A DNA stretch of 64,000 bases from Trypanosoma brucei (lineage: Eukaryota), in NCBI GenBank assembly GCA_000002445.1, contig CM000208.1:2304001-2368000 (forward strand), in the 5' to 3' direction. Numbering within the stretch: the first letter of the stretch is position 1; the number at the start of each line of letters is the position of its first letter. Below, piece after piece: positions 1 to 30,266 of this stretch. Under the pieces are notes generated by a model. That model did not search any database, was not told the origin of the DNA, and was given only the letters and a program-made list of their open reading frames with translations. The position numbers were made by a program, and so were the translations under genes.

Positions 1-731
1 CTAGCACGCCTGAAAAGTTCAATGAAACAGAAATCATACAGGGAGCTATGACACCTCCAATGCTCTTCACGGCAGAGGTGTATTGCGCTATGCCACAGAT
101 TGATATAATGGTAAAGCATCCAAGGAATACACCGCCTGGGAAGTGCAGGAGGTTCTACGAGCGAGCATTTGAGGCGTCCACCCGAACAGGGACAAGGGCG
201 ATTCTGAGGGCAAATGAATCTGGAAGGTCGTATCTCAATGGCGGAGGAGTAATTGCAAGAGTATGGGCTCTGAGAGAGGCTCTGGAGGCATTCTTCCGCT
301 TAAAAAAGCAAAGTTTTTTTTGGGGCTGTGATCAAACTATGTGGGCATTTGTGTTTTTGTGGAGTGTAACTAGACCAAGTAACGTGAAACCGAAGTTGTT
401 TCTGAGAAGGGGAATTATGAGCCTTGACTACGAAACTCGGTATTTTCATTATCCTTATGGAAAGGTGATCAAAAGGGGTGCCATACTACATTTTGCGGGG
501 TCGAGTAACGTGTGGAAGGAGACAATACCCAGGTACCTCAGCGAGATGAGTTGGTTCAAAGCTCTAAAAAATTCTTTCACAGAACGAGAGGCTTACAGGC
601 GGCTGCTAGAAACAACTTCCGTTGAAATACACTCTGCAAGGGGTGCCTTTAGGTATGTAAAGCTCGGTACTGTGTGCCCCATCTCTAACGTTTCAAACCC
701 AAATTGGTTATCTGGGGAGTTGAGAAAGTAA
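1..731 (+). CDS. Copy A of a type-II membrane GT-A-fold (GT8-like) putative glycosyltransferase. It is 5'-truncated by the window edge; codon phase starts at position 3.
   Basis: In frame with listed ORF 48..731, with no stops from position 3. About 98% identical to the C-terminal two-thirds of copy B. Carries the LNGGGVIARVW motif and a C-terminal ILHFAGSSNVW motif (GT8-like HxxGxxKPW region). Confidence 0.75.
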   Translation, partial: STPEKFNETEIIQGAMTPPMLFTAEVYCAMPQIDIMVKHPRNTPPGKCRRFYERAFEASTRTGTRAILRANESGRSYLNGGGVIARVWALREALEAFFRLKKQSFFWGCDQTMWAFVFLWSVTRPSNVKPKLFLRRGIMSLDYETRYFHYPYGKVIKRGAILHFAGSSNVWKETIPRYLSEMSWFKALKNSFTEREAYRRLLETTSVEIHSARGAFRYVKLGTVCPISNVSNPNWLSGELRK

Positions 732-821
732 TGCATACGGTCAATCTGCATTGAAGATTACACCCGTAATCCGCGGCACATCGCATCGCACTCTCTTATC
801 CCTTACATACTCATTGCAGAA

Positions 822-846
822 ACTGACGTTTTATTTTTGTTTTCAG
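822..846 (+). promoter_or_regulatory. Polypyrimidine tract plus AG, a candidate spliced-leader trans-splice acceptor. Equivalent sites recur at 2113-2137 and 3421-3438.
   Basis: gacgttttatttttgttttcag lies immediately 5' of the first plausible in-frame ATG of each array copy. Kinetoplastid mRNA processing uses a polyY tract followed by AG for SL addition. Confidence 0.5.
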
Positions 847-849
847 GAA

Positions 850-2022
850 ATGTTGAGGAGGATCAAGGGTATTTCAACTCGTAAAAAGGGAGGGAGATTA
901 TATTTAATAGTGATTGCGCTGCTGATAGTGGTCGGGGTTATGGCGACAATGGATATAAGAAGTAGTCATACGGAAACCGGTCACGGGTTGAGAAAAGAAA
1001 ATTTCCACAGTAGTTATGCACCAAGGATTAGTTATGTTGTGGTGCAAAACAGACCCTCCCCAGGGTGGTGTAGAATGCTCTTAAGCTCTATACTCACCAA
1101 TGTGTCGGTGGTTACGTTGGGTATGGGAGGATGGTATGGTAACGTAAGAAGATGGACCTGGATATATAATTATGTATGGCGGGGAGAAGCGCGTGAGAGC
1201 GATGTGATTGTGATATTCGATGGGGGAGACACTTTTTTCACAGAAACACATTTAAGAGAAGATGCCATGAAGTATTTTCTGGCAACAACGCCTAGCACGC
1301 CTGAAAAGTTCAATGAAACAGAAATCATACAGGGAGCTATGACACCTCCAATGCTCTTCACGGCAGAGGTGTATTGCGCTATGCCAGATATTGATATAAT
1401 GGTAAAGCATCCAAGGAATACACCGCCTGGGAAGTGCAGGAGGTTCTACGAGCGAGCATTTGAGGCGTCCACCCGAACAGGGACAAGGGCGATTCTGAGG
1501 ATGAATGAATCCGGCAGGTCGTATCTCAATGGCGGAGGAGTAATTGCAAGAGTGTGGGCTCTGAGAGAGGCTCTGGAGGCATTCTTCCGCTTAAAAAAGC
1601 AGTGGTTTATATGGCGTTGTGATCAAACTATGTGGGCATTTGTGTTTTTGTGGAGTGTAACTAGACCAAGTAACGTGAAACCGAAGTTGTTTCTGAGAAG
1701 GGGAATTATGAGCCTTGACTACGAAACTCGGTATTTTCATTATCCTTATGGAAAGGTGATCAAAAGGGGTGCCATACTACATTTTGCGGGGTCGAGTAAC
1801 GTGTGGAAGGAGACAATACCCAGGTACCTCAGCGAGATGAGTTGGTTCAAAGCTCTAAAAAATTCTTTCACAGAACGAGAGGCTTACAGGCGGCTGCTAG
1901 AAACAACTTCCGTTGAAATACACTCTGCAAGGGGTGCCTTTAGGTATGTAAAGCTCGGTACTGTGTGCCCCATCTCTAACGTTTCAAACCCAAATTGGTT
2001 ATCTGGGGAGTTGAGAAAGTAA
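850..2022 (+). CDS. Copy B of the type-II membrane GT-A-fold putative glycosyltransferase (390 aa). The start is reassigned to the ATG at 850, just downstream of a polypyrimidine-AG tract.
   Basis: ORF 751..2022 in frame 1. The motif ttttatttttgttttcagGAAATG at 827-852 suggests 751-849 is intergenic. The N-terminus has a basic tail (RKKGGR) followed by a hydrophobic anchor LYLIVIALLIVVGVMA, giving Golgi type-II topology. Motifs present: DxD-like DVIVIFDGGDTFF, LNGGGVI, ILHFAG...W. Confidence 0.75.
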   Translation: MLRRIKGISTRKKGGRLYLIVIALLIVVGVMATMDIRSSHTETGHGLRKENFHSSYAPRISYVVVQNRPSPGWCRMLLSSILTNVSVVTLGMGGWYGNVRRWTWIYNYVWRGEARESDVIVIFDGGDTFFTETHLREDAMKYFLATTPSTPEKFNETEIIQGAMTPPMLFTAEVYCAMPDIDIMVKHPRNTPPGKCRRFYERAFEASTRTGTRAILRMNESGRSYLNGGGVIARVWALREALEAFFRLKKQWFIWRCDQTMWAFVFLWSVTRPSNVKPKLFLRRGIMSLDYETRYFHYPYGKVIKRGAILHFAGSSNVWKETIPRYLSEMSWFKALKNSFTEREAYRRLLETTSVEIHSARGAFRYVKLGTVCPISNVSNPNWLSGELRK

Positions 2023-2140
2023 TGCATACGGTCAATCTGCATTGAAGATTACACCCGTAATCCGCGGCACATCGCATCGCACTCTCTTATCCCTTACATA
2101 CTCATTGCAGAAACTGACGTTTTATTTTTGTTTTCAGGAA

Positions 2141-3319
2141 ATGGCGAAGGGAGGGAAAAGGGTAGTTGCTCGTAAAAAGGGAGGGAGATTATATTTAATA
2201 GTGATTGCGCTGCTGATAGTGGTCGGGGTTATGGCGACAATGGATATAAGAAGTAGCCATACGGAAACCGGTCACGGGTTGAGAAAAGAAAATTTCCACA
2301 GTAATTATGCACCAAGGGTTAGTTATGTTGTGGTGCAAACGAGACGCTCCCCAGGGTGGTGTAGAATGCTCTTAAGCTCTATACTCACCAACGTAAGCGT
2401 CACAACAGTTGGAATGGGCGCAGTGTACATTCATGCGTGGAGATGGACCTGGATATATAATTATATGCTACGGGAGAGGATGCATGAAGACGATGTGATT
2501 GTGATATTCGATGGGGGAGACACTTTTTTCACAGAAACACATTTAAGAGAAGATGCCATGAAGTATTTTCTGGCAACAACGCCTAGCACGCCTGAAAAGT
2601 TCAATGAAACAGAAATCTTACAGGGAGCTATGACACCTCCAATGCTCTTCACGGCAGAAAAAGGCTGCTACGCGCCGCAAATGTATATCATGACGGGTGT
2701 CGATCCCAGTAAAATACCTCAACGGGAAAGATGTTTAAATGTGTATGAAGAGGCATTTGAGGCGTCTACTCTGGCAGGGACGCAGGCTATTTTGCGGAAG
2801 CACGAATCTGGAAGGTGGCATCTCAATGGCGGAGGAGTAATTGCAAGAGTGTGGGCTCTGAGAGAGGCCCTAGATGTTTTCTTCGCGCTCAAAAGGCAGA
2901 GTTACAAATGGTGGTGTGATCAAAGTATGTGGTCATTGATTTTAGCGTGGAGTGTCAGCAGACCAAAGCACGTGAAACCGGTGTTGCTTCTGAGAAGGGG
3001 AATTATGAGCCTTGACTACGAAACTCGGTATTTTCATTATCCTCATACAACGCCGATTAGGACAGGAGTGATCCTACATTTTCCAATGCCGATCGTTTTG
3101 TGGAAAAACAAAATGGCAAAATACGTTGGTGAGACGACATGGTTTAGGGCTTTGCGAGATTCCGAAGGAAGACAGAAGACAGTGGCAGATTACTTAAAGA
3201 CCGTTTATGTGGATATTCGCTTCGTCTTTGGGTTCAAAAAGTGGAGGAAGTTTAGCAGCGTGTGCAGCATAAGCGATGTTGTGAACCCAAACTGGCTAAG
3301 TGGTGTGTTGAGAAAGTAA
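2141..3319 (+). CDS. Copy C of the type-II membrane GT-A-fold putative glycosyltransferase (392 aa). Its N-terminal half is near-identical to copy B, and its C-terminal half is a mosaic of conserved and diverged blocks.
   Basis: ORF 2042..3319. The ATG at 2141 follows ttttatttttgttttcag. It has the same TM anchor, the DVIVIFDGGDTFF motif, LNGGGVIARVWALREAL, the shared LRRGIMSLDYETRYFHYP block, and ILHFPMP. Confidence 0.75.
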   Translation: MAKGGKRVVARKKGGRLYLIVIALLIVVGVMATMDIRSSHTETGHGLRKENFHSNYAPRVSYVVVQTRRSPGWCRMLLSSILTNVSVTTVGMGAVYIHAWRWTWIYNYMLRERMHEDDVIVIFDGGDTFFTETHLREDAMKYFLATTPSTPEKFNETEILQGAMTPPMLFTAEKGCYAPQMYIMTGVDPSKIPQRERCLNVYEEAFEASTLAGTQAILRKHESGRWHLNGGGVIARVWALREALDVFFALKRQSYKWWCDQSMWSLILAWSVSRPKHVKPVLLLRRGIMSLDYETRYFHYPHTTPIRTGVILHFPMPIVLWKNKMAKYVGETTWFRALRDSEGRQKTVADYLKTVYVDIRFVFGFKKWRKFSSVCSISDVVNPNWLSGVLRK

Positions 3320-3443
3320 CACCAGCGCTTGACCTGTACCATAATATCATGCCCCCTATACGCTGCGTGTCGGCACGCCATTCACCAGGATGTATGAATA
3401 CACTGTGTGTGGAAATCCGTGTTTTATTTCATTTTTAGAAAAG

Positions 3444-4625
3444 ATGAAAGGAACTAAGAAATTTTATGGTAAAAGAAGGAAGAGAACGTGTGTAATAGGT
3501 GCGGCACTTCTGCTTATCTTTTTACTTTGTCGCATGCTGTTTATCCGGACGGAAGAAGTGGAAGACACCACGTTTGAGGAGGGTTGTTGGGAGCGTGAGA
3601 TGCGCAGCGAAGGAGTGGGAGATGTAAAGGTGCGTTACGTCGTGATACAGACGAAGCCCTCCCCAGGTTGGTGTAGAATGCTTGTAAGCTCTCTCGTTGT
3701 TGGTATTGATGTAATTACAATAGGACTCGATGGCGTGTACCATCACACCTCGAGGCCACATTGGTTGCTGAACTACATAGAAAGTGCGGGGTTAAGTGAT
3801 GACGATGTGATTGTGACATTTGATGGTGCGGACACAGTATTTGTGAACAAGCATAACCTCCAGTGCGCTATTAGCAAGTTCATATCAACGACACCGAGCA
3901 AACCAGAAAATTTCGATGAGGAAAAAATACTGAAAGGCGTCCAAAAGTCTCCACTCCTGTTTACTGCTGAAAGGGGGTGTTTTGCCTCTCAACTAAGCGT
4001 TTTGTTTTCAATAAGAGGCAGAAAACACGAAAAGAGGTGTGAGCGGTTCTATAGGGGGGAGATTTCAAAGGCCAAAGCAACCGGCGCGGAACGGGTGATG
4101 CGGATGCCAAAGAGTGGGCGGGCGTATCTTAATGCTGGTGGGGTGATCGGGAGGGTGTGGGCATTTAAGGAAGCAATAGGAGGATTTTCAAAACTTAGAG
4201 AAAAGAGTGACAGATGGTGGTGTGATCAGACAATTTGGACCATTCTCTTTGCCTGGAGCGTCAATCAACAGGACACTGGGGGTAAAGCAGTGCACTTGAG
4301 AAAGGGTCTGATTTCTCTAGACTACGATGCGAGGTATTTTCTCATTCCTTCGTACACTTCCCCAATTCGAAGCATGATATTGCATTTTTCCGGGCTTATT
4401 AGAGACTGGAAGTGGTGGTTTCCAGGTGTTGTGAGGAGGTTGGTATGGATACAGAGAATGAGAGATGATGTGTATCAGAGAGACAGTAGGAGTTTGCTAA
4501 CTAAGACCAGCTTAACGATCTACGGCGCTAAAGGAGAAAAATATATTCGTAAGTTTGCCGATGTTTGCAACGTTGATGAGGCCGTGGACTACACGTGGCT
4601 GTCGACGGTCCGAAGTAAGCATTAG
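3444..4625 (+). CDS. Copy D, a divergent paralogue (~35-40% identity to copy B) of the same type-II membrane GT-like family (393 aa).
   Basis: ORF 3390..4625. The ATG at 3444 follows gttttatttcatttttag. It has a basic tail and TM anchor (RTCVIGAALLLIFLLC). Conserved motifs: KPSPGWCRML, DVIVTFDGADTVF, YLNAGGVIGRVWAFKEA, WWCDQTIW, ISLDYDARYF, ILHFSG. Confidence 0.7.
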   Translation: MKGTKKFYGKRRKRTCVIGAALLLIFLLCRMLFIRTEEVEDTTFEEGCWEREMRSEGVGDVKVRYVVIQTKPSPGWCRMLVSSLVVGIDVITIGLDGVYHHTSRPHWLLNYIESAGLSDDDVIVTFDGADTVFVNKHNLQCAISKFISTTPSKPENFDEEKILKGVQKSPLLFTAERGCFASQLSVLFSIRGRKHEKRCERFYRGEISKAKATGAERVMRMPKSGRAYLNAGGVIGRVWAFKEAIGGFSKLREKSDRWWCDQTIWTILFAWSVNQQDTGGKAVHLRKGLISLDYDARYFLIPSYTSPIRSMILHFSGLIRDWKWWFPGVVRRLVWIQRMRDDVYQRDSRSLLTKTSLTIYGAKGEKYIRKFADVCNVDEAVDYTWLSTVRSKH

Positions 4626-7625
4626 ATACTACAGGTCAGCGTGAGACCGGCTGTTTCTACGGATGTGTGTACACAGGATTTTATACGTTGTGGGTTGCCG
4701 TCCACTCCGCGGCAAATCACCTTAGGTGCCACTGTTGACATCAAAAGGTTTTTCGAAGACAGTCTTTAAAAATTTATGTAAATTCGCTCCCTGCAATCGC
4801 GAGTTGGCGTTGTTTTGTAAACACGTGGATCCGCGTAAACGAAAAAAAAACAGCGATCCCAGTGTCGTTGGGATCTTCTACTGATGCCTGCAACGATGTG
4901 GCCACCGAAAAATAAAGGTAACCGTTTTTTTTTTTTAGCACCGTACTCGTTCGCTATTTACGGATGAAAATGAGGGGGAGTAGTGGGTATGTAGATTTCG
5001 AATGCCGTATCGTGGTGTTATTGGTGACTTTCTGTAAAACAAGCAGTTCAAAGGGGGAGTGTGATTATTATCGTCAAACTTTTAGATGAGAGCTTGCATT
5101 CAAGGCGCGTGTTGTGGCAGAAAACACGGGCTGCTCCCTGAGGTAGTGCAAGCCGTGTGCTCGTATAACGCCATCCGGTGCAGTGGTGGTTGGTGTGGTG
5201 GTGTTCCGCGACACCGACATGTCGGGAGGTGTCTGTGAGATTGAGGGGTTTATGTGGGAATATGATATCGTAGCAATGTTTTATGGCGCAGACACGTCTT
5301 TAGCGCAGGCCGAGTTTGTGGAGGAAGAGACACACCTTTGCGAATAGCTCACCAAAAATTAAAATGACAAACACATGGCGAGAGTCATTTTGCTTGGAAC
5401 AATGTTCCCCTCAATAATTTTCCGATCGAGAGGGGATGTTACCTCCTACGGATGTATGTCATGCTAGTGGTGTAGAACAAAAGTTCACAGTGGTACGAAA
5501 GTGTGTGAATATACGAGACTGGATGAGTGGGAAGGAGCTTATGGAGGGCTCGTCACGGTTGGGCTGCAGAATGCATGCCCAAACGGCATCGGTAAAAGTG
5601 GAAGAGTTTAAACGCTCAGAGAACCCTTTAAATCACTTTGTCAACGCCAGGATGGAGAACTTCAACTGATGGTGCGGCTACTATATAAGCGCTGGCGTTT
5701 CCGTACAATGTGACAGAGTACGTATTCGGGGAGGCGTTTACTCCCTCTCTACGGGGACCCATGTCCCTTAACTACAACTTCCAATGGTTTGGCAACGCCA
5801 CACTCAAAACAAACCTCACTTCCACTATTGCCCATTCGGGGTGAGATAATTGGGAGGGTGAGCTTGCCGATGACTGGGAGACTGTCATTGTGGTACCGAC
5901 AACTTGAACCACCGGAGAGGTGACAGTGAACGAAGGAGCATTCACTTTCGGAGCCTTTAGTGGCACAACGTAAGGAGAGAAAGTGCCTTCGAACAACCTC
6001 GGTGACGTGCGTCGAATCAATAGGACGGTGAAATATAAATGGCTAATGAGACCATTTAAGTGAAGTTAGCTGACGCCAGCACCATGTGTTTGCATTTATT
6101 TCACCGTGGCGTGCCTCGTATTTCTCCGCAATGAAGTTGGGTAGACATCTTCACCATTGTTGAGGACGTGGTATGCATCTATTGAATAGTGGATCTTGTC
6201 CCTAAAAACTGCCGAAACGTGGACGAAGAGCTCTCATAAAAAGGATTTCGATTTTACGCTGCTGTGCGTGAGTCAGGATAAAGAGGTGGCGTGATTTTAA
6301 TTGGTTCCATTGGAAATGCCTGTGATTTAGAGGAGTTCTTAGTGAAATCTCGAGCGCGCACAATAGTGATAAAACGAAAAAGAGGGATGTGAGGGGGAGG
6401 GCGTGCCGGTCATATAAAGGATATTCCAAACTATGAGCTTCATGGGAAAGACGCTTGTTTTGTGCGCGCTATTTTTCCGAACAAGTAGCAGGGGTACAAT
6501 CTCGCTTCAGGTTGCGCTGCAGCAGATTGATGTCCATGATATAACTACCTCTCCCGTGGATAAGAGCCGTTCCATTACTCGAAAATTAGGTAGGGTAGAG
6601 AGCGCGGGGTGGCGACCAGAAGTTTTGATTCGGAAGAAATTATTGTAGATTATGTTTGTCGCCGTGTGTTTTCCTCTTACCTTATCAGTTTTCAACTACA
6701 GTGATGGCATTCCATCGGGAGTGGTCCGACTAATCTTGGAACCACCCTCGGGAGCGAGTCGCTCTGTGGGCAATTTGGGAGAAGACAGGACTTGTGATAC
6801 CGAGATGTTAAAATAAATTTAAAGTAGTTGTATAACGTCTAAGAATTCAAAGGTGTATACAGTTGAATGTTTAATCCTGGGCGTGCTCATGAAGTAAATT
6901 GGTTACTTGGGGGTTATGGAAGCGAAATTAGTATGTTTTTTGTGGGCTTGTTGTATTCATGATCATCTAGAGAAAAGCATTGACGTACGAAAAGCTGATT
7001 ACAGTGGATTGAGGGAACGGAAGGCCAGTTGCCCATTTGAGAGGGAACGCCAGCGGGAGTCTTCCAAGAGACGGTTAGCTCTCACTATATGCCAGTTTGT
7101 TGCCGATTGTCTGTGAAATTTATAATTCAAGTGGAAGACATCACTCTTCTCAGATCATATCTGAGTTTAAAAGAATTGGGATACCCCTGTTGCTCAAATA
7201 TTCCACCATAAAAAACGAAAGATCTTCACTTGGTAGCGTCGGATTAACTGTGCGTCCGGTTTCTCATATTCAGAACATCAATTGGAACTCCCACTCTATA
7301 GTGTGCCACGTCAGTGTTCTTCAATTTCCAAAGAGAGGGAGATTTTGTGACGGCAGCTTCATACCGCAGCGGGGGTCTTGGTGTGTATGCAGAGATTGCT
7401 TACTTGATGTGCACCACTCAGTTGCAACATCCTTGGCGTAGTTAACGGACAAAATTTAAAAATTTTATTGCTTTGAAAAAAAAATGAATTTGTGTTAAAT
7501 GATATCTTAACATTTAAATGCTTTTCTTAGCAAATGATTGCAAATAACTTTGCGTTAAATGGAATGATCTTGTTTTTCATGCTGTCTTGTGAAGGGACGT
7601 TAAATTTGCAACAGCTAGGATAATA

Positions 7626-8228
7626 ATGAGAACGAATAGTCTCAACATCGGAGCAGTTTTGGGGGTGATGTTGGTAGTGGTTGACATTGAAGCACAGGGA
7701 ACAGGTGCCGTGTCCGCGTCGCATTGCACTTTCAACCAGCGCTCCGGTGTTTCTAAGAAGGAAGAGCTAGGGGACGCTATGAAGGTAGATAATGTCTTTC
7801 CAGGAGGCCCTAAAAAAGACGTTTTGGTGTCGTGTGCCAATAAGAGTCGTCAGACAGCGGCAGGGATTTTCGTTCACTGGTGCTGCAGGTGTGAATCAGA
7901 AACCAGTGGCGACAGGGGCAATGTTTGCGAATTTTTTGGAGATTGTGAATGTGATGATATCTATTCAACCTCAAACGTCCCTAAATGCGTTAAAGGAGAC
8001 CACATGTGGAGGGACTCTTCTACTGCGCTGCGGGCGGTTCTTCAGGATGTCAAGGGGAGAGACGCTTGTAACATCTCAACACCTAATGGAAAAGAGATAT
8101 TGATGAAGCTTACGAGAGAAGAGCTCACATCTAATATAGCACCTCAGGATTCGTCCTCCAAAATATTCTTGTTTCTGCTGGCTGCGCTGCTCATGCAGGA
8201 CGAATCTGTGGCACAAACCTCCAATTAG
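7626..8228 (+). CDS. Possible small (200 aa) cysteine-rich type-I membrane or secreted protein.
   Basis: The N-terminus has a signal-peptide-like hydrophobic stretch (IGAVLGVMLVVV). There are 10 Cys, some in clusters (HWCCRCESE, CEFFGDCECDD). There are N-glycosylation sites NKS and NIS. A C-terminal hydrophobic stretch IFLFLLAALLM is followed by a 10-aa polar tail. It is on the same strand as the cluster, with a polyY...AG (gcttttcttag) upstream. No homology is recognised. Confidence 0.35.
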   Translation: MRTNSLNIGAVLGVMLVVVDIEAQGTGAVSASHCTFNQRSGVSKKEELGDAMKVDNVFPGGPKKDVLVSCANKSRQTAAGIFVHWCCRCESETSGDRGNVCEFFGDCECDDIYSTSNVPKCVKGDHMWRDSSTALRAVLQDVKGRDACNISTPNGKEILMKLTREELTSNIAPQDSSSKIFLFLLAALLMQDESVAQTSN

Positions 8229-11200
8229 CGAGAATGATAACTCGTCCGTCACACATTTTAGTGGAAAATAGGGGGTATTAAACAAAAAGGGCCCTCACAA
8301 ACACGTGCATCCAAAATATAAATAAATACATATACATGCATATTTCCTCTTCTCCTCATGGCGTCTCCTAGAGGTTGCTGGCTTCTCTTAGGCACATCCT
8401 CTGTCCACGTATTACTCACACTTGCACGTATGATTTACTATGGCCCAAGCTGCTTTGATATTTGACGTTTCCAATGAGCACACACTTTTGATACTTTCCC
8501 AACTTTTTGTACATATTTCTGTTGCATTTTATGTTCAAAGAGCACCGTGCGGTGGTTGGGGGGAAAAACGTAGCACAGTGATAGGATGCCAATAAGAGAG
8601 GTTTGAAGGAACTACGGGAATACGATGGGCTACTTTGCTGAAGCAAGGAAAACCTCAATTAGTCCTGCGTGGCACTGAAAGAACACCATCTGGTGGCAGA
8701 GATGAATATGGCTAGCAAAAAAAAAAAAAAGACTTTCTCTTTGCAAAAACTCCCTGAGAGCTTTCCACAAACAGGGTGGCGTGTCTGAGGAAGCTTTTTC
8801 ACGGACTTTCCCTCAAAGGGTCTCACGCCAAGAAAACAGATTATGGCAGAGTGACAAATTTCACGGTTGCTTATAGATTCCTACCCCTTTTGGGCGGAGG
8901 AACATCACCCTCATGAATCTCACTCAAAAGAAGGGAGTGGTGACGGCGGTCGGCCTGTCAGCAAAATGCCGGTGTCCATTCCTCTGGGTGTATGTGCCGC
9001 GTGGCCCGCGTTGTGCAAGGTTTCGTTCATCTGAAGTTAAGCTTTTGTGGACGGTGGCTTTCCATTCAAGGTTTGCCAATGCGGCTGCAGCGTGGGGTTT
9101 GTATAAATGTGCTTAACATTCACTGGTATAGATTTGCTGCATGTTCATGGGATCGCTGATGCGCCGCGCGTGAAAAAAAAAATTATTCCATTTTCGTCAT
9201 TTGGACACCATTCTTCCGCCTTGCAGTCTACACTCCTCTGTGACCGAATGACAACGGTTAGTACAGGTGCAGCTCTGAGTAGGCTGACCACCGGGGCGTG
9301 CGGTAAGTCAATTCCCTTTGTGACTTACCCACAAAGATAAAGGGCGCGAACTATCGCTAATTTGGCACCGCAGTGGCAACGGTGCGCAGACAGGTCAATA
9401 TGCCGCAGTTTTGACTTACTTCACCCGTGTTATCGTCTGTTTCATTCTTCCTTTCGGCGATCCGGGCCGGTGTTTGGCTCGTTACTTCATCGTGCACGGA
9501 GAAACTACCCTTCTTTCGCAGTAAAAACACGCAAACTGTGAGCCATCAAATGTTCTTCGTCAGTGCGGTGCGTAGTGTTAACTGTGCTGGGTCGAAAGGC
9601 TTTTAAAACTGCAGTACCCATGCATCATTTGTTCCAGGGTGACGCAGCACTTGCTTTCGCTTCTGGATCCAACTGTGTGTGACCTCACACGGCCGGAGTT
9701 GTGACCACCATGACTGCAGCAGTCCAGTGCTTCCATACTATTGCCGTGACGTGGTCACAGTGGGATTTGTTAATGTTTTGAGCAAACCGCAAGAGTCATC
9801 GCGACTGTTGTCTCGCCATAGCTTAGGGGCTTGGCGTAGGGGTTCGCGCATAAGAAGGAGCACTAACCCGAGTTCCGCACCCCATTCCGGTGGACACAGC
9901 GCTCCATACCGAGGGGTGCTGTGTATGTGGTGTGCCTGTCTTATCGCATATCTTCAGGTGGCACGTGCCTCGCCCGCTCACCCCCAGCAGGGGCAAAGCG
10001 GCACCTCACGTCGCTCGCATACAATAGGGTGCGGGATGTGATTTTGAACAGACACTCCCTCATTCGGAGGGAAGTACCTTATTTTTGAAAGTACCCTGTC
10101 AATTCGAAACCCCTAACCCATGAGGGTGATCTCTCCCTGTGATACTGTGCTAGTGAACACGCTCTTACAGTTGGGTGTGCTTTTTTACATGCTGGGTCCT
10201 CGGCAATTTTCGATTTGTGCGTACCCTGCTTCATTTTTCTATGCTCGGGCTGGTTTTCCGCGGGGGCAACAGTGTGAAGAACCATATGGTCGACGGGGGT
10301 GCCAGCCTCTGCGCCCCAGACTTCATCCTTGTCCCAATCGTAGTGACCAGGCACTGACAGAGTGGAGATATGGGCAGTGCAGCGCTCTTCAACAAAACGG
10401 TGGGGCCCTTCGCCATAGTGGCATGTGCCGAAAAAAAAAAACAGTCCCGAGACACGTCCTGCACATGTCGCAGTGCAGCTTCACACCTTAGACAATTTAA
10501 AAGGAAGAGCACTTTGTCGGGTTTCTGCCCCAGCTTAAAATACAAAGTTATTCCAATTTAGGGCGGTAAATTATAACAAGAGGACGGCGACGAAAAGAGG
10601 AAGGGGTAAAGAACCGATTTTTTGTCTCGGCTTCGCGCCAACCGTCCGCGATTGCGCTTCGTTCCTAGCGCGGAAGTATGGAGAGCCTTGGAAGGAACCG
10701 TTCCAGCCTTGCTCAGGTTACAGCCGTTGCTCCACCGTGTCTCCAATACCTGCTTCTTCTTTTTTCCCCAAAGCTTTTTCGATATGGGGCATGTGGCCAA
10801 GTAGCCCGACGACCATTGGAATACCAACTCCAACTGGCTGCGGATTTCCTTCCCTTCCCGGTCGCACACCCAGTGGTGGGTTCCCGGTTGCACCAGCTTT
10901 CCTCGCTTACTGCTTAAAGCTCGGCTATTGCTGGTAGCGTTTCGCCGATATGGCCCAACTCCTTGTTATCGCATCCAGGGATGCCAGTGAGAACGGCGAC
11001 CCCAGCTTAATGCTGTGAGGTGTATCCCAACATCGTCTCCGTCACTCGCAATTTGACACAGCTCCTCCGTATCACGGGCTTTAATTTCGGAATGCTCGTA
11101 AGTGTTGCCTTTCTTTCCTCATCTTCACCCCGTTTTTTTCACTCCTTCCATTGGACCCTGCGAATCTCTTATCGGTTTCCGTCCTGATACATGGGCAGCC

Positions 11201-14200
11201 GTTCCCACCGCATATTTACGGCACGCCTTGGGCCCGTTAATGCCATCCCTGTGGTTAAGAAGATATCTAAATACATTTTCGGAAGCAGGGGGTTTGTTTT
11301 CCATCGGAACATCGCTGTGCCTGCGATGCGGCAAGCTTCCTTCAGATCTCCACGCGCCTTCATCGCCTTATTCTTCTCGGAGCGCTACCCATTTAAGTGG
11401 AGCAGTGTCTGTTTTCATTTGTGTGCTGCCATCGTTCTTTTCCAATGGCTTTCTTCTTGATTTTCCATGTGTACTTTGAGTCGCTCCTATATGTGTCCCA
11501 TCAAGGCCCTACTGAGCAAATATGCCGCTGTGCTCGGAACGTTTTCGGTCTGAATTGTTATTTGCCTTCCCCCGTCTGGTCTCTCCTTTTCCCATCTGTC
11601 TGGGCAAGTGATGGCATGTAAAGCTTTGCGATGGCCCGCGATGGTGTGAGGAAATATTTTACACTTGCCCACTTCTTTTATGCTGCTCCAAAAAAACAGA
11701 CCAAATCTTAGTTTATGACTACCCGCTCTCCTCCAATCAAATGGTCTACTGTGATCGACACTTTGTTGCCTCGTTCACAGTTATCCTCCGCTCCTGGTGT
11801 CACCGAGCCTCGCTTTCGTCGGCACTTTTACTCCCCTGTAGCAGGTAAACTATGGGTTTGGCGTGGCAAGTACTGTTGCTGCTTTGCCACCGAAACTTCT
11901 GTCTACCTTCACCACTTGTTCGACCAACTTTGGTCTTATTCCGATGATTTCTGTCGTAGGCGTTCCTTTGCTGCGTGGGCAGTCGTTGGTGTTTATGCGT
12001 TTCAACACGATATGACGCTTAGGCCGCGCAAGCGTTCGCTAACTCTTGTCCGGAAGTGACCCCCGAAATGCACGTTCACTATTATTTGTCCCCACCTCCC
12101 TCACCTTCGCCTCTGCTACTCCTTCCTCAGCGGTTTTTTTTCATTCGGACAACATCAGTTTGAACCAGGTGGTTGGTGGTTTTCTACCACTTAAATCACA
12201 CTTATTTTACTAACTTCCTGGGACGCTGCAGCTACTTCTGCGACAAACCTCCTCCAAAGTTGGTGTTCCTGATGCCGACCCCCTCCCCCTGCACGTGACA
12301 TTAAGAGTTCATCGGTCGCTAGACTCCGTCGCCGCCGCCGTTTCCCTCTTATCCGGAGGCCCTGTTGCCACGCATAACCTCAGCTTGGCTTACAGTTTGT
12401 TGGCTTTCGTGCATCATGGGAACTTCCAGGCACACTCCCCGACTATTCTTTCCCACGGTCTTTGTCTCTTCCTCGCCTTTCCTGGTATGGGAATCCCTTT
12501 ATATTTATCCACGTTTTTCTTTGAGCTCCACGCATTTTTTTAGAAGTGCCGCTGATGCTTAGGAGTCCGGGCGGAAGTCATGGTTATGAGAGGCTTTAAA
12601 GCATTTTTTCAGTTTTTCTTACTCTTCAGAAGTCACACACATATGTTTTACCACCGTGTTGTTTGTCGCTTTGCCCGGTTGTGACTGTAAAAAGGCATAC
12701 CCCGGGCATGCTATTAGTCTACGGGTTCTTTCTTACGCAACTTCACGGGGTGGGAACTCTCCTGCTGAACCGCTTGGGGATGTATCTAAGCTTTGTTTCT
12801 CCCATTACTCCTTTGATTCTGCTGGTTACAGCTGGAGCTGCACCCACAGCCGCATTTGTTGGAGGTTGTCCTCCTGTGAATCCATCTGGATCGCCAGAAG
12901 GTGAACCTTGAAGCGCCCTGGGACACTTTCCTCCACACAGGTGGGTTTTGTGTCCTTTGGGGAGGCAACGTGTCGGCGCCCATGGAAAGTGGAAGGTTTG
13001 CTTCCCCAGTATTCACACGTTTCTCACGGAAGAGCAAAGAAGTTGGTGCGCACCCACAGGCCATCGTCGCAAGGAACAAACCCTTCTCAGTTTGAGACGG
13101 CGCCCGCATTGCATTCCACATTGATGGGAAATGAAACCTTTTCCCCGTTGGCCCTACAGAAATATGGTGAAAGGGAGGAAAAGGCAGATAGCGCCAACTC
13201 ACGTTGCCCTTTAATGGCGCACGCTCTGAGAGTTCACTTTCCCTTTAATACCCCAATGTCGGTGCGCGCCCTTACTCTACTCGGCGCGCCCCAAACTTCA
13301 GCGTCGACTCGCCACACTGAGAAGGTTTTGCATATTGGCCTCCAACTTGGACGGTTTTGGGCCCTGAACCGTGGGAGGAGGTTGTGTGCTTTCCCCCTCA
13401 TACTCTTTGAGCTGCCCAACGACCCCTTCATAATCGCAAGGCGCCATTCCGCGGCTGAGGGACCCTCTTTTGTCTCACGCGAGCTGTGGTCACTTTAAAG
13501 GACGTGGTGTCATTAAGGTAAGTTACGAACAATGCATGTCTCGCTGCCCTCGCGTTTAACGGCACGAACAATTCTTGCTCCCGCGTAGCAACGGTGTACA
13601 GGTTTCGTCACTGTGGGTTTTTCGTCTCAAGTCACTCCGTTCTCCCCCGTGCGGCTGATAGTTCATTGGTGGAAAAACTGTCTCGCGGCCAGGGGACTGC
13701 GCTGAAACGATTTCTAAGGATACCCATGGAAATTATCAAACATAGAGGACACTTTTCATGGCCCGCCGCAACGTGCCTGGAAAATGGTGAAAAAATGACG
13801 TTCCACAGATGCCTGTGACACCAGCGCTGTGCGGTTTCGTAAACGCACCACAAAAGTGACCCCCGTATGAGAATTTCTGCCCAGCCCCAGCTCCACCCGA
13901 ACTTAGGGTTTACTTAAGTCTGGCATTACGTCAACACAGCTGGTGGTGGCGCGGAGAAATAGCAGGCCGGGTGCCCCCCAGCAGCACTTCCCTAGCGAGT
14001 TGCTGTTGATGAAAAAAATGCCTTCTTCCCCTCCCACCCCGGTGTGCTTGTGACTCGCGCGCCTCTGTATGGCAGTCCCTCCCACTTTCCCCTTAAACCA
14101 AATGGTTCCAACCAGCCAATCATCGAATTCCCCTCGAGCCCTCCTCTTCTATCTCGGCATCTTCAGCAAACTTGAGCCCGGCGCCTCGGAGTCAAGCAAA

Positions 14201-15872
14201 TTTCTACGGTGTTGGACCGGCCTGTAAAATACAGACGCCAGTTTCTCAACCGCAGAGCTCCACTGAAAACACGAGCTCCTTTAGCGAGGCAGACCCCAAC
14301 TATTCCGCTGCGATCCATGTGAAATTGGACTGGGGCTTCCCCGGCATCCTTGCTCAACGACAGCGGCTACGAGGGACAAGCAAAGAAGCAAACTTCCAAG
14401 GAAACGAAAAAGGCAAAAGAGCATTTGCTGTCGCAGGGTGGATTGATAACGTTACCGTGGCCCCTTGCCCCAGAAGACGGTGCTAGCAAGCCCTCCCAAA
14501 TTTCGTCAAAGTGGGATACACGCAAGAGATGGGAATCCCCTGCTTCAGAAAATAGCCACGCCCTGCCGCTGCGGCAACGTAGTTGGCATTGCCAATAATA
14601 TTCTTGCTTTTACCGACCCTCTGGAAAACGCGAGGCCACAACCACTCCTTGACGGACTTATCAACTACTACTGATTTTTTTTTTCGTCTCCTTCGCCTCT
14701 TCGTCATCCTGCAGCCACTTGTGACAGCAGGATTTCGTTTCACCTGACAGCTCCACAGTTTCGCATATAGTGATATTTGGCCCTCAAATCAGAAGAACTG
14801 ACACCTCGGCGTTGTCTAATCGGCCAAAAATCTCGCTTTCCACAACTCTTTCTGGTTCCCCTTTTTTTCAGTAGGCAGAGGAAAACAACCATCTCCAAAC
14901 TGAAAACTGTGTGCAGCCGCGCCCCAGCGGAAGCAACATGCTTGCGCAGCAAGGTTATGTCGGACGAGTGACCCACCTCCCTTTCGATAGGCCCTATTTG
15001 GTGCCATTCACCTTTGGCTGGGGTTCTCACCACTCGACACACCCTGTCCTTCGGTCCGAAATTTTCCTTTTCAGGAATTTGTGGCTTCCACCCTCCCTCC
15101 CGTACATCCTTTTGCCACGAGTGGGGCTTGGTATCCTCCTCGTTGTTTTTTCAGTGTTTTGGATGGCGGCTGTGTCGCAGCACCGCCCTTTTCCAGTTGC
15201 ACGGCACTCCGCGGTGCTCGATCCCAGCATCTTTTCACGCGTAACCGTTGCACCTTCATTTTCCTGGAGGGGGTGCGCCCCCCAAGGAACGATCTGGCCT
15301 CCCGATGGTGCGTTATTCTGGCATCAAAGGTCAATGGCGAAGTCGGTGTCCGAACTTCCGCTGCTTACGAATTGCCTTACGAACGGAGAATGGTTGTCAC
15401 TCTTTCGCTTTCACGGTTGTCTGCTCCCTCCCGCTCTGCGCGTTGGTCGATTTATCCGGCTACCCTTCCTAAAGTGAAACGAGGGGGTTTTACAGGTAAG
15501 GAGCTCCCGCATTGGCCCTGTCGCTTGGTACGTCTCCCCAGTTCGTCGAGGGTTTCGTGTTCCACCGGCTGATCAGGTAACTGCCGACGCTAACTTCTAC
15601 TGATCATAGGTTTCTTCTCCTCTTCGTCTTGGCGGTGCGCTCGCCTCAACCGCACCGGTGACCCGGTGAGCCTCCTACGCATTTCCTTGCAGTGCGGGCC
15701 TCCTGGCTCCCCGCGGTCGCCATTTTTCTTACTTGTGTGTACGGTGGTTGGCTGCCCCATTGCTGCTCTTTGTGTGTTTTTTTCTTTTTCTTTTTTCTCG
15801 GCGGGAGGGGATGTAGTTTCTCTCTTTTCTTTTGCTGAGGACAGGTTGGGGCGGCATGAGAAGTTCCTGAGG

Positions 15873-15913
15873 TGTGTCTGTGTGTGTGTGTGTTGGGGGG
15901 GGGGGGGGGGGGG
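15873..15913. repeat. (GT)n microsatellite immediately followed by a 19-nt G homopolymer.
   Basis: The sequence gtgtgtctgtgtgtgtgtgtgtt followed by 19 G lies at 15873-15913. A poly-T tract lies 50 bp downstream. It is about 460 bp upstream of the oxidoreductase gene. Confidence 0.9.
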
Positions 15914-16375
15914 TACGGCCTAGCGGCTGTTTCTGCTACCGAGGTGTGTGACGAAGGCGCCACCCTCCTAGCTTGCCGTGTTGCAGTTTTTTTTTTTTAC
16001 AGCTAGTTGTGGCGGTTCGCCCTCGAGTACCGAGAGACGCAGGTGCATCCCGTGAATATTCGGGTCGTTTAAACTGTTAGCGATCGGTGTCGGGATACGT
16101 GTGCTCCAGTCGGGTTTCGCTCTTTGCGCTTTCGCCCTTTCAGGGCAGCGGGTGCTTTGAGCTCCTGGTAAATGCCACTTTGTCTTTGCTAACATTTTTT
16201 TCGGGTTATCCACTTTATGACGCTTAAGGTTAGTCGTGCTACAGATGATGCCCGTATATGTGTACAATCGCCAATGTTCGCGTCCATGTAGGCGTTGGTG
16301 TTCTTATCTTCCTTACCGTTTATTTACAAGGAGGAGAAAGCAAAGTCTTTTTTTTAAAGCTGACAGCCCACTGGC

Positions 16376-17380
16376 ATGCAGAGGAAAATTGTAGCGAAGA
16401 GACTGTCCTCAAACTTCCGTGAAGCTACTGAGGTTCTGTCATCTCCTATCCCTTCCTATCTTAAGTCAACTGAGCTTCTGGTGAAAAACCGGTTTGTTGG
16501 CATTAACGCTAGCGATATCAACTTCACTTCAGGGAAATACTTGCCAGGGACTGTACCTCCCTTTGACTGTGGCTTCGAGGCCCTCGGTGAAGTCGTTGCA
16601 GTGGGTGATGGTATCAAACAGTTTTGTGCCGGTGATGTTGTAGTCACGCAAGCCTTCGGTGCTTTCTGTGAATATCAAGTGGTTCCTTCCAGATCTGCTA
16701 AGAAGGTCCCTTTACTGAAGTGTGAGTATCTGCCCCTTGATCTCAGTGGGACGACCGCATCTATTTCAATAGGTGAGATTTTGAAGCCGTTAAGGGGGGA
16801 ATTAGCGGTTGTTACGGCCGCTGGTGGAGGGACAGGACAATTCGCCGTGCAGATATTGAAGAAAGTCTACGACTGTACTGTTGTCGGAGTGACTTCCTCC
16901 TGCAGTAAGGAAAACATGCTGAAGGAACTAGGGTGTGATCATGTTATTGTTGGGGAACGTGAGTCAGTTGGTGAGGCAATGAAACAACTTATGCCAACGG
17001 GTGTAAATGTTGCCTACGAATCTGTGGGAGGTGACATGCTGGATGTCGTGGTAGATAACATTTCCCTCCGCGGCCGCGTACTCTCTATTGGGGGCATTTC
17101 TGGGTATAGTAACGGAGGTAGCTGGGACTATTCTGAGAAAGGTAAAGCACCATTGCCAATGCGTCTCTTGTCAAAAAGCGCGTCCCTCAACACTTTTTTT
17201 CTCCCACATTATATCAAATATGCGAAACTACACTTTTCACGGCTTTGTCAGATGTACGAACAAGGAACACTACAGAGCTGTATTGACCCTTCGAAGTTTA
17301 AAGGGTTGGAAGCTGTGGCTGATGCGGTGGAGTATATGTACGAAAGGCGGAATAAGGGAAAGGTCATCGTTGAGATTTGA
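16376..17380 (+). CDS. Medium-chain dehydrogenase/reductase (MDR) family oxidoreductase, ZADH2/PTGR3-like quinone oxidoreductase type.
   Basis: GINASDINFTSGKY is the ZADH2 signature region. AAGGGTGQFAVQILK is the Rossmann nucleotide-binding glycine motif. The length is 334 aa. A polyT/polyY tract lies upstream at 15975-15990. Confidence 0.85.
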   Translation: MQRKIVAKRLSSNFREATEVLSSPIPSYLKSTELLVKNRFVGINASDINFTSGKYLPGTVPPFDCGFEALGEVVAVGDGIKQFCAGDVVVTQAFGAFCEYQVVPSRSAKKVPLLKCEYLPLDLSGTTASISIGEILKPLRGELAVVTAAGGGTGQFAVQILKKVYDCTVVGVTSSCSKENMLKELGCDHVIVGERESVGEAMKQLMPTGVNVAYESVGGDMLDVVVDNISLRGRVLSIGGISGYSNGGSWDYSEKGKAPLPMRLLSKSASLNTFFLPHYIKYAKLHFSRLCQMYEQGTLQSCIDPSKFKGLEAVADAVEYMYERRNKGKVIVEI

Positions 17381-26247: not shown

Positions 26248-26249
26248 GA

Positions 26250-30231: not shown

Positions 30232-30266
<35 letters not shown>

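What the first reader, a model, noticed from the sequence alone, without database searches (positions are those of the whole stretch)
4626..16375. 11.7-kb gene-free segment inside a co-directional cluster: candidate internal transcription boundary or decayed element
This gap is unusually long for a kinetoplastid intergenic region. It separates into three parts: a mixed-composition unique stretch with frequent stops (5000-9000); a GC-rich stretch with multi-frame overlapping ORFs, meaning few stops on either strand (9700-13500); and a pyrimidine-rich, stop-poor stretch (14900-15950) ending in (GT)n-G19.

A 14-nt poly(A) at 8718-8731 could be the tail of a retroposed element. No RT or RHS/DGF-like coding remnant is recognisable by eye. 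In trypanosomes, such long gaps between same-strand genes often coincide with head-to-tail PTU boundaries (termination plus re-initiation, marked by base J, H3.V and H2A.Z) or with degenerate retroelements (DIRE).
Basis: inference. Interest (0 to 1): 0.5.

Follow-up and report, generated by a model that had tools for sequence, protein, structure and literature searches.

The report
Known internal transcription-unit boundary, T. brucei

Summary
The window is T. brucei TREU927 chromosome 10 (Tb927_10_v4 2,304,001-2,368,000). The interval 4626-16375 lies between the last ESAG3-like gene (Tb927.10.9500) and the oxidoreductase Tb927.10.9560.

It is not gene-free. It holds Tb927.10.9510 (7626-8228), a Trypanozoon-only 200-aa orphan. 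It also holds four annotated ORFs that give no detectable transcript. The truly empty part is about 8.1 kb (8229-16375).

Kolev et al. 2010, Table S14, ends one + strand transcription unit at Tb10.6k15.0880 (=9510). It starts the next at Tb10.6k15.0820 (=9560) from an "Internal" initiation site. ORFs 9530 (- strand) and 9550 (+ strand) are silent and are de-repressed when the termination factor PNUTS is depleted.

A (GT)7-G19 tract on the coding strand (15880-15913) matches the 10-mers most enriched at the 5' edge of T. brucei start regions. It sits 462 nt before the oxidoreductase ATG.

I found no reverse transcriptase, RHS or other Pfam domain, no tRNA or Rfam RNA, and no repeats, so the "decayed element" idea has no support. 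The low stop density is largely a base-composition effect.

T. rangeli has only 379 bp at the same junction, so the T. brucei spacer is probably lineage-specific material.

Verdict: a real head-to-tail boundary, already known.

The parts
48..4625 (+). Context: tandem array of ESAG3-like genes (last copy 3390-4625, by position about Tb927.10.9500), in the distal part of the upstream transcription unit.
   Evidence: ORFs and translations. Named 'expression site-associated gene (ESAG) protein, putative / ESAG3'. Tb927.10.9460-9480 are called ESAG3 in PMC4288722 and PMC3957582.
7626..8228 (+). Tb927.10.9510 (Tb10.6k15.0880): a 200-aa Trypanozoon-only orphan. It has an N-terminal hydrophobic signal-like segment, about ten Cys and a C-terminal hydrophobic segment. 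It is the last annotated ORF of the upstream transcription unit.
   Evidence: Exact matches in TREU927, DAL972 and T. equiperdum. No other homologue among 1.84 billion representatives. No Pfam hit. Kolev 2010 Table S14 lists the unit 'Tb10.6k15.2130..Tb10.6k15.0880 +'.
8717..8730 (+). A14 run, 489 nt after the 9510 stop codon. It is probably just a homopolymer in the 3' region of 9510. No retroposon body was found upstream of it.
   Evidence: six-frame Pfam negative.
8229..15879 (.). Spacer with no transcribed gene, about 7.6 kb. From about 9000 onward GC is 0.49-0.56 and the + strand is C/T-rich. Inferred termination zone of the upstream unit, and territory of antisense transcripts from the downstream start site.
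   Evidence: Composition. No Pfam domain in six frames. No tRNA or Rfam hit. No repeats. Its ORFs are not transcribed but are de-repressed on PNUTS RNAi.
10120..10491 (+). Tb10.6k15.0870 (by position about Tb927.10.9520), annotated 'hypothetical protein, unlikely'. Probably not a gene.
   Evidence: Listed among ORFs with no detectable transcript, coordinates 2314120-2314491.
12786..13121 (-). Tb10.6k15.0850 / Tb927.10.9530, a minus-strand ORF. No transcript normally. Log2 fold change 4.47 on PNUTS RNAi, read here as a marker of antisense transcription.
13124..13498 (+). Tb10.6k15.0840 (by position about Tb927.10.9540), annotated 'unlikely'. No transcript.
14938..15477 (+). Tb10.6k15.0830 / Tb927.10.9550. 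It has rpkm 0.6 in bloodstream forms. It rises 8.4-fold on CTR9 RNAi and by log2 2.70 on PNUTS RNAi. It also rises on bromodomain inhibition and during differentiation.
15880..15913 (+). (GT)7 followed by G19 on the coding strand. Inferred 5' edge or promoter-type element of the internal transcription start region.
   Evidence: Sequence. Longest G/C run in the window. G10 and GTGTGTGTGG-type 10-mers top the list of words enriched on the coding strand in the first fifth of 199 start regions (Wedel 2017 Dataset EV1). Length varies between strains: G15 in T. equiperdum IVM-t1.
15987..16002 (+). T12 tract followed by ACAG: the first strong polypyrimidine/AG candidate trans-splice acceptor downstream of the G run (inferred).
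   Evidence: Sequence only; not verified against splice-site data.
16376..17380 (+). Oxidoreductase Tb927.10.9560 (Tb10.6k15.0820), the first ORF of the 'Internal' transcription unit.
   Evidence: Pfam ADH_N / ADH_zinc_N. ID confirmed in PMC11537032. Table S14 row 'Tb10.6k15.0820..Tb10.6k15.0080 + Internal'.

Best explanation
The interval is a head-to-tail boundary between two RNA polymerase II polycistronic transcription units on the + strand of T. brucei chromosome 10.

Pol II that started at the divergent start region near Tb10.6k15.2130 reads through NDH2, the ESAG3-like array and the orphan gene Tb927.10.9510. It then stops somewhere in the roughly 7-kb GC-rich, pyrimidine-rich spacer (8.2-15 kb). 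A new unit initiates just upstream of the oxidoreductase Tb927.10.9560, most likely around the coding-strand (GT)7-G19 tract at 15880-15913.

Initiation there is bidirectional. Antisense transcripts running back over 9530, and read-through from upstream over 9550, are normally cut short by the PNUTS-JBP3-Wdr82 termination machinery. That leaves the spacer transcriptionally silent.

Shown by published experiments: the internal start between 0880 and 0820; the absence of transcripts from the four spacer ORFs; and their de-repression on PNUTS or CTR9 depletion.

Inferred: the exact start position at the G run; the position of termination; and the presence of H2A.Z, H3.V or base J.
For: - Exact protein look-ups identify the window as TREU927 chr10, carrying genes EAN78345-78352. 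IDs are tied to Tb927.10.9560. Coordinates are fixed by Kolev Table S2.
- Kolev 2010 Table S14 lists 'Tb10.6k15.2130-Tb10.6k15.0880 + Divergent' followed by 'Tb10.6k15.0820-Tb10.6k15.0080 + Internal'. The paper states that internal sites show sense and antisense 5'-triphosphate reads.
- Table S2 lists 0870, 0850, 0840 and 0830 as giving no detectable transcript.
- Kieft 2020 S4 Table has Tb927.10.9530 at log2FC 4.47 and Tb927.10.9550 at log2FC 2.70 (padj 1e-53) on PNUTS RNAi. The authors state that such core-chromosome genes flank transcription units.
- Ouna 2012 reports 9550 at rpkm 0.6 (median 30.6), rising 8.4-fold on CTR9 RNAi and listed near a stop area.
- 9550 also rises on bromodomain inhibition.
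- The (GT)7-G19 tract on the coding strand matches the top 10-mers of the 5' fifth of start regions.
- Genes on both sides are on the same strand.
Against: - I saw no histone-variant, base-J or run-on data for this locus.
- The genes are not among those up-regulated in H3.V knock-out or DMOG-treated cells. There were no Tb427.10.94-96 or Tb927.10.95 entries in the supplements held for Reynolds 2016. H3.V/J dependence of termination here is therefore unproven.
- Table S14 defines units by first and last annotated ORF and does not give the start coordinate.
- The Wedel 10-mer signal in the gap comes almost entirely from the one G/GT tract. A second gap at 26-32.5 kb scores higher yet is not a boundary. 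The motif alone is therefore weak evidence.
- Low rpkm of the spacer ORFs would also be expected for ordinary intergenic DNA inside a unit.
Confidence: 0.85

Rival explanations
1. It is an exceptionally long but ordinary intergenic or UTR region inside one continuous transcription unit. Pol II reads straight through and the spacer RNA is simply discarded after processing.
For: - The spacer has no feature other than composition and one G/GT tract.
- A comparable 6.5-kb gap at 26-32.8 kb in the same window is not a boundary.
- T. rangeli has the two flanking conserved genes only 379 bp apart on one strand, so the ancestral junction need not have been a boundary.
Against: - Kolev 2010 assigns an Internal start unit beginning at Tb10.6k15.0820 and ends the previous unit at 0880.
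- A minus-strand ORF (9530) and a plus-strand ORF (9550) inside the spacer are both de-repressed on PNUTS depletion. The authors link that behaviour to unit flanks.
Confidence: 0.08
2. It is a decayed mobile element or pseudogene (DIRE, ingi, RIME, SIRE, RHS, DGF-1, or a dead copy of a neighbouring gene), with the A14 run as a retroposon tail.
For: - The A14 run at 8717-8730.
- GC content closer to coding than to intergenic DNA in 9-16 kb.
- The junction has lost a tyrosine-phosphatase gene that stercorarian trypanosomes keep there.
Against: - Six-frame translations of 4626-16375, with stops masked, give no Pfam family at E<=0.1.
- There is no tblastn remnant of any window gene.
- There is no tblastx match to the T. 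cruzi, T. vivax or T. theileri upstream genes, including the phosphatase. The best hit has E 0.006 over 31 aa.
- The annotated spacer ORFs occur on only 1-4 contigs each, so they are single-copy.
- There are no internal repeats.
- No trypanosomatid repeat library was available, so very short or non-coding elements such as RIME or SIRE cannot be fully excluded.
Confidence: 0.04
3. It is an unannotated non-coding RNA locus (a snoRNA cluster or long non-coding RNA) occupying the spacer.
For: - Transcripts mapping to 9550 change in several perturbations and during differentiation.
- Kolev 2010 reports more than 1,000 novel transcripts genome-wide.
Against: - ARAGORN found nothing.
- Rfam found nothing at gathering thresholds or at E<=1.
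- The region has no tandem or dispersed repeats of the kind that snoRNA clusters show.
- The four ORFs gave no detectable transcript in procyclic cells.
Confidence: 0.03

Closest known systems
Non-divergent ('internal', head-to-tail) RNA polymerase II transcription start regions of Trypanosoma brucei (Siegel 2009; Kolev 2010; Wedel 2017)
   Same: - Genes on both sides are on the same strand.
- It is listed as an 'Internal' unit start in Kolev 2010 Table S14.
- It has a coding-strand G run plus GT repeat of the kind enriched at the 5' edge of start regions.
- Silent ORFs just upstream are de-repressed on loss of termination factors.
   Different: Nothing found here sets it apart. There is no tRNA or snRNA gene at the boundary, so it belongs to the 'Internal' class rather than 'next to tRNA'. 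The spacer is long: about 8 kb without a transcribed gene.
PTU-internal or premature termination sites marked by base J and H3.V, which silence the last genes of a unit (Reynolds 2014/2016; Kieft 2020)
   Same: Silent, lineage-specific ORFs sit at the distal end of a unit and are de-repressed when PNUTS is depleted.
   Different: The ORFs here were not found among genes up-regulated in the H3.V knock-out or DMOG data sets held. J/H3.V dependence is therefore not shown. The ESAG3-like genes and 9510 just upstream are not in the part of the PNUTS up-regulated list that I saw.
Synthetic GT-rich promoters of Wedel et al. 2017
   Same: They share the same word classes (GTGTGTGTGG, G8-10 runs, T runs) in the same orientation relative to the downstream genes.
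   Different: The natural element here is a single 34-nt tract, not 210-416 nt of concatenated words. Its activity has not been tested.

Membership tests
Head-to-tail (internal) Pol II transcription-unit boundary of T. brucei | Primary (5'-triphosphate) transcripts map to the site, and a new unit is defined from it | tested here: met
   Literature look-up, not my own data. Kolev 2010 Table S14 has the row 'Tb10.6k15.0820 - Tb10.6k15.0080, +, Internal', and the preceding unit ends at Tb10.6k15.0880.
Head-to-tail (internal) Pol II transcription-unit boundary of T. brucei | Flanking genes are on the same strand, with no strand switch | tested here: met
   All real genes from 48 to 62559 are on the + strand. 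Minus-strand ORFs 12786-13121 and 22167-22640 give no transcript.
Head-to-tail (internal) Pol II transcription-unit boundary of T. brucei | H2A.Z/H2B.V/H4K10ac peak over the start region | not testable with these tools
   No ChIP-seq tracks were available. Kolev 2010 states that enrichment was seen at all sites predicted from histone marks, but I saw no locus-level data.
Head-to-tail (internal) Pol II transcription-unit boundary of T. brucei | H3.V/H4.V/base J upstream, marking termination of the preceding unit | not testable with these tools
   No tracks were available. There is only indirect evidence. PNUTS RNAi de-represses 9530 and 9550. There is no entry in the held H3.V-KO/DMOG supplements.
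Head-to-tail (internal) Pol II transcription-unit boundary of T. brucei | Coding-strand G-run / GT-rich words at the 5' edge of the start region | tested here: met
   (GT)7-G19 lies at 15880-15913 on the + strand. G10 occurs 132 times on the coding strand against 17 on the non-coding strand in region 1 of 199 start regions. Caveat: the word list also scores highly in a non-boundary gap.
Degenerate non-LTR or other retroelement (ingi/RIME/DIRE, SLACS, VIPER/SIRE) | Recognisable reverse transcriptase, endonuclease or RNase H remnants in some frame | tested here: not met
   Six-frame, stop-masked hmmscan of 4626-16375 against Pfam gave 0 families at E<=0.1.
Degenerate non-LTR or other retroelement (ingi/RIME/DIRE, SLACS, VIPER/SIRE) | Multi-copy sequence in the genome | tested here: inconclusive
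   The annotated spacer ORFs occur on 1-4 contigs only, and there is no similarity elsewhere in the 64-kb window. I could not search the whole T. brucei genome or a repeat library.
Degenerate non-LTR or other retroelement (ingi/RIME/DIRE, SLACS, VIPER/SIRE) | 3' poly(A) tail with flanking target-site duplication | tested here: inconclusive
   A14 is present, but no element body or duplication could be defined. There are ten A runs of 9 nt or more in the window.
RHS / DGF-1 / ESAG pseudogene remnant | Protein-level similarity to the family | tested here: not met
   There is no tblastn match to the ESAG3-like or other window proteins and no Pfam family.
Structural RNA gene cluster at a unit boundary (tRNA, snRNA, snoRNA) | Detectable tRNA or Rfam family | tested here: not met
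   ARAGORN found 0. Rfam found 0 at gathering thresholds and 0 at E<=1. Kolev classes the site as 'Internal', not 'next to tRNA/snRNA'.

The most novel reading that the evidence does not exclude
The boundary is evolutionarily young. The junction may have been an ordinary tight intergenic one between a tyrosine-phosphatase gene and the oxidoreductase gene, as it still is in T. rangeli (379 bp), with NDH2 further upstream. The polarity of the change is inferred, not tested.

In the T. brucei lineage the phosphatase was lost. More than 16 kb of lineage-specific DNA came in: the ESAG3-like array, an orphan surface-type gene, and about 7 kb of GC-rich DNA of unknown origin. A new termination and re-initiation site arose there.

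On this reading the locus would be a datable example of how a polycistronic unit is split in two. It would also be a place where orphan ORFs (9510-9550) are kept under transcription-termination control rather than post-transcriptional control. T. cruzi has independently acquired a 4.7-kb GC-rich spacer at the same junction.
Probability: 0.3. Interest if true: 0.35.

Novelty: already known. Interest (0 to 1): 0.15.

Why it matters
For the scan, this shows that a reader working from sequence alone can pick out a real internal Pol II boundary in a trypanosome. The clues were gap length, a composition shift and a coding-strand (GT)n-G run. The boundary itself has been in the literature since 2010, so it adds nothing new about T. 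brucei transcription.

Two modest points may be useful:
- The published start-region 10-mer list is not specific on its own. A non-boundary gap in the same window scores higher.
- Comparison with T. rangeli and T. cruzi suggests this boundary sits in lineage-specific inserted DNA. That could make the locus a convenient case for asking how transcription-unit boundaries arise.

Tried and rejected
- tRNA and Rfam scans of the window and of the gap at E<=1 found nothing.
- blastn of the gap against the window, and tblastn of all window proteins against the gap, gave only chance hits.
- Repeat and tandem-repeat finders in the gap gave only short chance matches.
- Pfam on the long ORFs and on all six stop-masked frames of 4626-16375 found nothing.
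- Homologue searches for the 200-aa ORF found Trypanozoon only.
- blastn and tblastx of the gap against the upstream regions of the orthologous locus in T. vivax, T. cruzi and T. theileri showed no conservation.
- My early idea that a long gap upstream of the oxidoreductase is conserved across Trypanosoma was rejected. T. rangeli has 379 bp there, and the T. theileri 'gap' is partly assembly Ns.
- Leishmania oxidoreductase homologues sit in different contexts and were not informative.
- The Wedel 2017 supplements hold no start-region coordinates for this locus.
- The held H3.V/J supplements (Reynolds 2016, Kim 2021) have no entry for these genes.
- Searches by UniProt accession and by 'PFC14 + Tb927.10' found nothing.
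- Siegel 2009 is not held.
- No general promoter motif exists to scan for; Staneva 2022 says promoters appear heterogeneous.
Full report
**Identity of the window.** Exact-sequence look-ups of the window's proteins return consecutive GenBank entries EAN78345-EAN78352 from a 4,054,025-bp record of Trypanosoma brucei brucei TREU927. Near-identical loci occur in T. equiperdum OVI and IVM-t1 and in T. b. gambiense. Kolev et al. 2010 give coordinates for four ORFs of the interval; for example, Tb10.6k15.0870 is at 2,314,120-2,314,491, which is window 10120-10491. Window base 1 is therefore Tb927_10_v4 position 2,304,001.

The old and new gene names can be tied together. The oxidoreductase at 16376-17380 is Tb927.10.9560 (PMC11537032). 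PFC14 at 17781-21029 is Tb10.6k15.0810 (PMC2813431). Tb927.10.9460-9480 are ESAG3 genes. NDH2 is Tb927.10.9440.

**The observation.** The interval between the last ESAG3-like gene (ends 4625) and the oxidoreductase ATG (16376) is real. It contains no ORF of 150 aa or more except 7626-8228.

| Segment | GC | Pyrimidine (+ strand) | Stops per 100 codons |
|---|---|---|---|
| 5000-9000 | 0.45 | not notable | 4.4 |
| 9700-13500 | 0.51 | 0.57 | 3.1 |
| 14900-15950 | 0.56 | 0.58 | 2.2 |

The low stop density is close to what the base composition predicts. Against first-order Markov resampling, z is -2.5 for 9700-13500 and -1.0 for 14900-15950. No frame is open, so nothing suggests a hidden long gene.

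(GT)7 at 15880-15893 and G19 at 15895-15913 are as described, and G19 is the longest G or C run in the 64 kb. The A run is at 8717-8730.

"Gene-free" is not correct. ORF 7626-8228 is the annotated gene Tb10.6k15.0880 / Tb927.10.9510, a "T. brucei spp.-specific protein". Four more ORFs are annotated as "unlikely" or species-specific: 10120-10491, 12786-13121 on the minus strand, 13124-13498 and 14938-15477. The stretch without any transcribed gene is therefore 8229-16375, about 8.1 kb. That is still the longest gap in the window. The other gaps between real genes are 0.3-1.9 kb, apart from a second gap of 6.5 kb at 26248-32785.

**What is not there.**
- ARAGORN finds no tRNA.
- Rfam finds nothing at gathering thresholds in the window, and nothing at E<=1 in the gap.
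- The gap has no similarity to the rest of the window, no protein-level remnant of any window gene including the ESAG3-like genes, and only chance-level direct, inverted or tandem repeats.
- Stop-masked translations of all six frames of 4626-16375 hit no Pfam family at E<=0.1. No reverse transcriptase, endonuclease, RNase H, RHS or other domain is recognisable.
- The annotated spacer ORFs occur on one to four contigs each, so they are single-copy.
- The 200-aa protein has no homologue outside Trypanozoon, either in the indexed search or in a full HMMER pass over 1.84 billion representatives.

The "decayed element" reading therefore has no support. A trypanosomatid repeat library was not available, so short non-coding elements cannot be formally excluded.

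**What is there: published functional data.**

*Kolev et al. 2010 (PMC2936537).* This study mapped putative Pol II initiation sites with libraries enriched for 5'-triphosphate RNA. It found them at divergent regions, next to tRNA genes, and at internal sites, always with sense and antisense reads. [quoted passage not shown] For chromosome 10 it has "Tb10.6k15.2130 - Tb10.6k15.0880, +, Divergent", followed directly by "Tb10.6k15.0820 - Tb10.6k15.0080, +, Internal". The upstream unit therefore ends at the 200-aa gene at 7626-8228, and a new unit starts at the oxidoreductase at 16376. Table S2 of the same paper lists Tb10.6k15.0870, 0850, 0840 and 0830, the four spacer ORFs, among annotated ORFs with no detectable transcript.

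*Kieft et al. 2020 (PMC7055916).* The S4 Table lists mRNAs up at least three-fold after PNUTS RNAi. It contains Tb927.10.9530 (log2FC 4.47) and Tb927.10.9550 (log2FC 2.70, padj 1e-53). The authors state that up-regulated genes in chromosome cores lie at the flanks of transcription units. They interpret this as failed termination at 3' ends and failed early termination of antisense transcription at 5' ends. Here a minus-strand ORF (9530) and a plus-strand ORF (9550) respond together, which fits both effects acting at one head-to-tail site.

*Ouna et al. 2012 (PMC3332058).* Tb927.10.9550 has rpkm 0.6 in bloodstream forms against a median of 30.6. It rises 8.4-fold on CTR9 RNAi and is annotated as lying near a transcription stop area.

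*Bromodomain-inhibition study (PMC10269879).* The same ORF rises on bromodomain inhibition in both life-cycle forms and during differentiation.

**Sequence evidence for the start site.** Wedel et al. 2017 list 10-mers enriched at least six-fold on the coding strand of 199 start regions. The top entries are in the 5'-most fifth. They are GGGGGGGGGG (132 coding against 17 non-coding), GTGTGTGTGG, GGTGTGTGTG, TGTGTGTGGG and GTGTGTGGGG. Synthetic promoters built from such words drive directional transcription and H2A.Z deposition.

The tract at 15880-15913 is of exactly this kind and is on the coding strand. It lies 462 nt before the oxidoreductase ATG and about 75 nt before a T12-ACAG candidate splice acceptor. 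I therefore place the 5' edge of the start region there, as an inference.

The caveat matters. When the whole word list is scanned over the window, the gap scores only at this one tract. The second gap at 26-32.5 kb scores 10-20 hits per kb on the + strand, yet Kolev's unit runs straight through it. Word density alone is not diagnostic.

**Comparative context.** The block oxidoreductase-PFC14-(...)-WD40-kinase is conserved and co-directional in T. vivax, T. cruzi and T. theileri.
- Upstream of the oxidoreductase, T. cruzi has NDH2, a tyrosine phosphatase, and then a 4.7-kb ORF-poor stretch. That stretch has GC 0.54-0.59, against 0.34-0.45 downstream.
- T. vivax has a 3.9-kb gap with different upstream genes.
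- The T. theileri gap is partly assembly Ns.
- T. rangeli has NDH2-phosphatase-oxidoreductase with only 379 bp between the last two.
- The phosphatase has no salivarian trypanosome among its best 120 homologues.
- There is no DNA or translated similarity between the T. brucei spacer and any of these upstream regions.

In T. brucei, NDH2 (9440) is followed by the ESAG3 array, 9510 and the spacer before the oxidoreductase (9560). The simplest reading is that a tight junction has been filled, in the T. brucei lineage, with lineage-specific DNA, and that the boundary lies in this material. This evolutionary reading is an inference and is the only part of the story that may be new.

Within Trypanozoon the whole interval is collinear and 99.1-99.9% identical, with no large insertions or deletions. 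The G run varies in length, being G15 in IVM-t1.

**Mechanism proposed.** Pol II from the divergent start near Tb10.6k15.2130 transcribes through the ESAG3-like array and 9510. That this is one unit is shown at list level by Kolev. Pol II then terminates within roughly 8.3-14.9 kb. This is inferred from three things: the absence of transcripts, the silence of 9550, and its de-repression on PNUTS loss.

A new, intrinsically bidirectional initiation event occurs near the (GT)7-G19 tract. The existence of an internal start is shown; its position is inferred. The sense product starts the unit Tb10.6k15.0820-0080. The antisense product is terminated early by the PNUTS complex, an inference from the behaviour of 9530.

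Whether H3.V, H4.V and base J mark the spacer could not be tested. The genes are absent from the held H3.V-KO/DMOG lists.

**Verdict.** The interpretation as a head-to-tail boundary is supported, by data that already exist in the literature. The retroelement alternative is not supported. The finding is real, correctly read in its main alternative, and already known. Interest is low.

Noticed in passing
window 26248-32785: A second ORF-poor gap of 6.5 kb (GC 0.395) with a T-rich + strand, many T runs, (GT)15 at 30234-30263 and a GT repeat at 31240-31264. It has the densest + strand matches to the Wedel 2017 start-region 10-mers in the window (10-20 per kb). Even so, Kolev 2010 places no unit boundary here, and its annotated ORFs (Tb10.6k15.0750, 0730, 0720) give no transcript. 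It is probably a very long UTR or intergenic region. It shows that the 10-mer list is not specific on its own.
   Followed up: partly
window 48-4625: A tandem array of ESAG3-like genes with a unit of about 1.29 kb. The spacing is extremely tight: the mechanical ORFs of successive copies begin 20-70 nt after the previous stop, with no stop codons between. Copies are 90-99% identical. Copy number differs between strains: T. evansi STIB805 lacks Tb927.10.9460 and 9470 (PMC4288722).
   Followed up: partly
window 7626-8228: Tb927.10.9510 is a 200-aa orphan with a signal-peptide-like N terminus, about ten cysteines, and a C-terminal hydrophobic stretch followed by ten polar residues. That looks more like a membrane anchor than a GPI signal. 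It has no homologue outside Trypanozoon in two very large searches. It could be a young surface-protein gene at the very end of a transcription unit.
   Followed up: partly
L006 3251-5257 (T. cruzi); L009 7769-9622 (T. rangeli): A tyrosine-phosphatase gene lies between NDH2 and the oxidoreductase in stercorarian trypanosomes. It has no T. brucei, T. congolense or T. vivax protein among its best 120 homologues. It seems to have been lost in salivarian trypanosomes at the junction where T. brucei now has the ESAG3 array and spacer.
   Followed up: partly
L006 5258-10000 (T. cruzi): T. cruzi has its own 4.7-kb ORF-poor, GC-rich stretch (GC 0.54-0.59 against 0.34-0.45 in the genes downstream) directly upstream of the oxidoreductase. 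It shares no sequence with the T. brucei spacer. One assembly's gene caller also placed small ORFs in it.
   Followed up: no
window 21030-22949, with minus-strand ORF 22167-22640: A 1.9-kb gap between PFC14 and the WD40 gene holds only a 157-aa minus-strand ORF (Tb10.6k15.0790), which gives no transcript. T. cruzi and T. theileri carry a gene of about 800 aa at this position that T. brucei and T. vivax lack.
   Followed up: no
window about 10824-11148 and about 15909-15931: The T. equiperdum OVI assembly breaks into separate contigs within the spacer, and its alignment breaks at the G run. These stretches appear to be hard to assemble.
   Followed up: no
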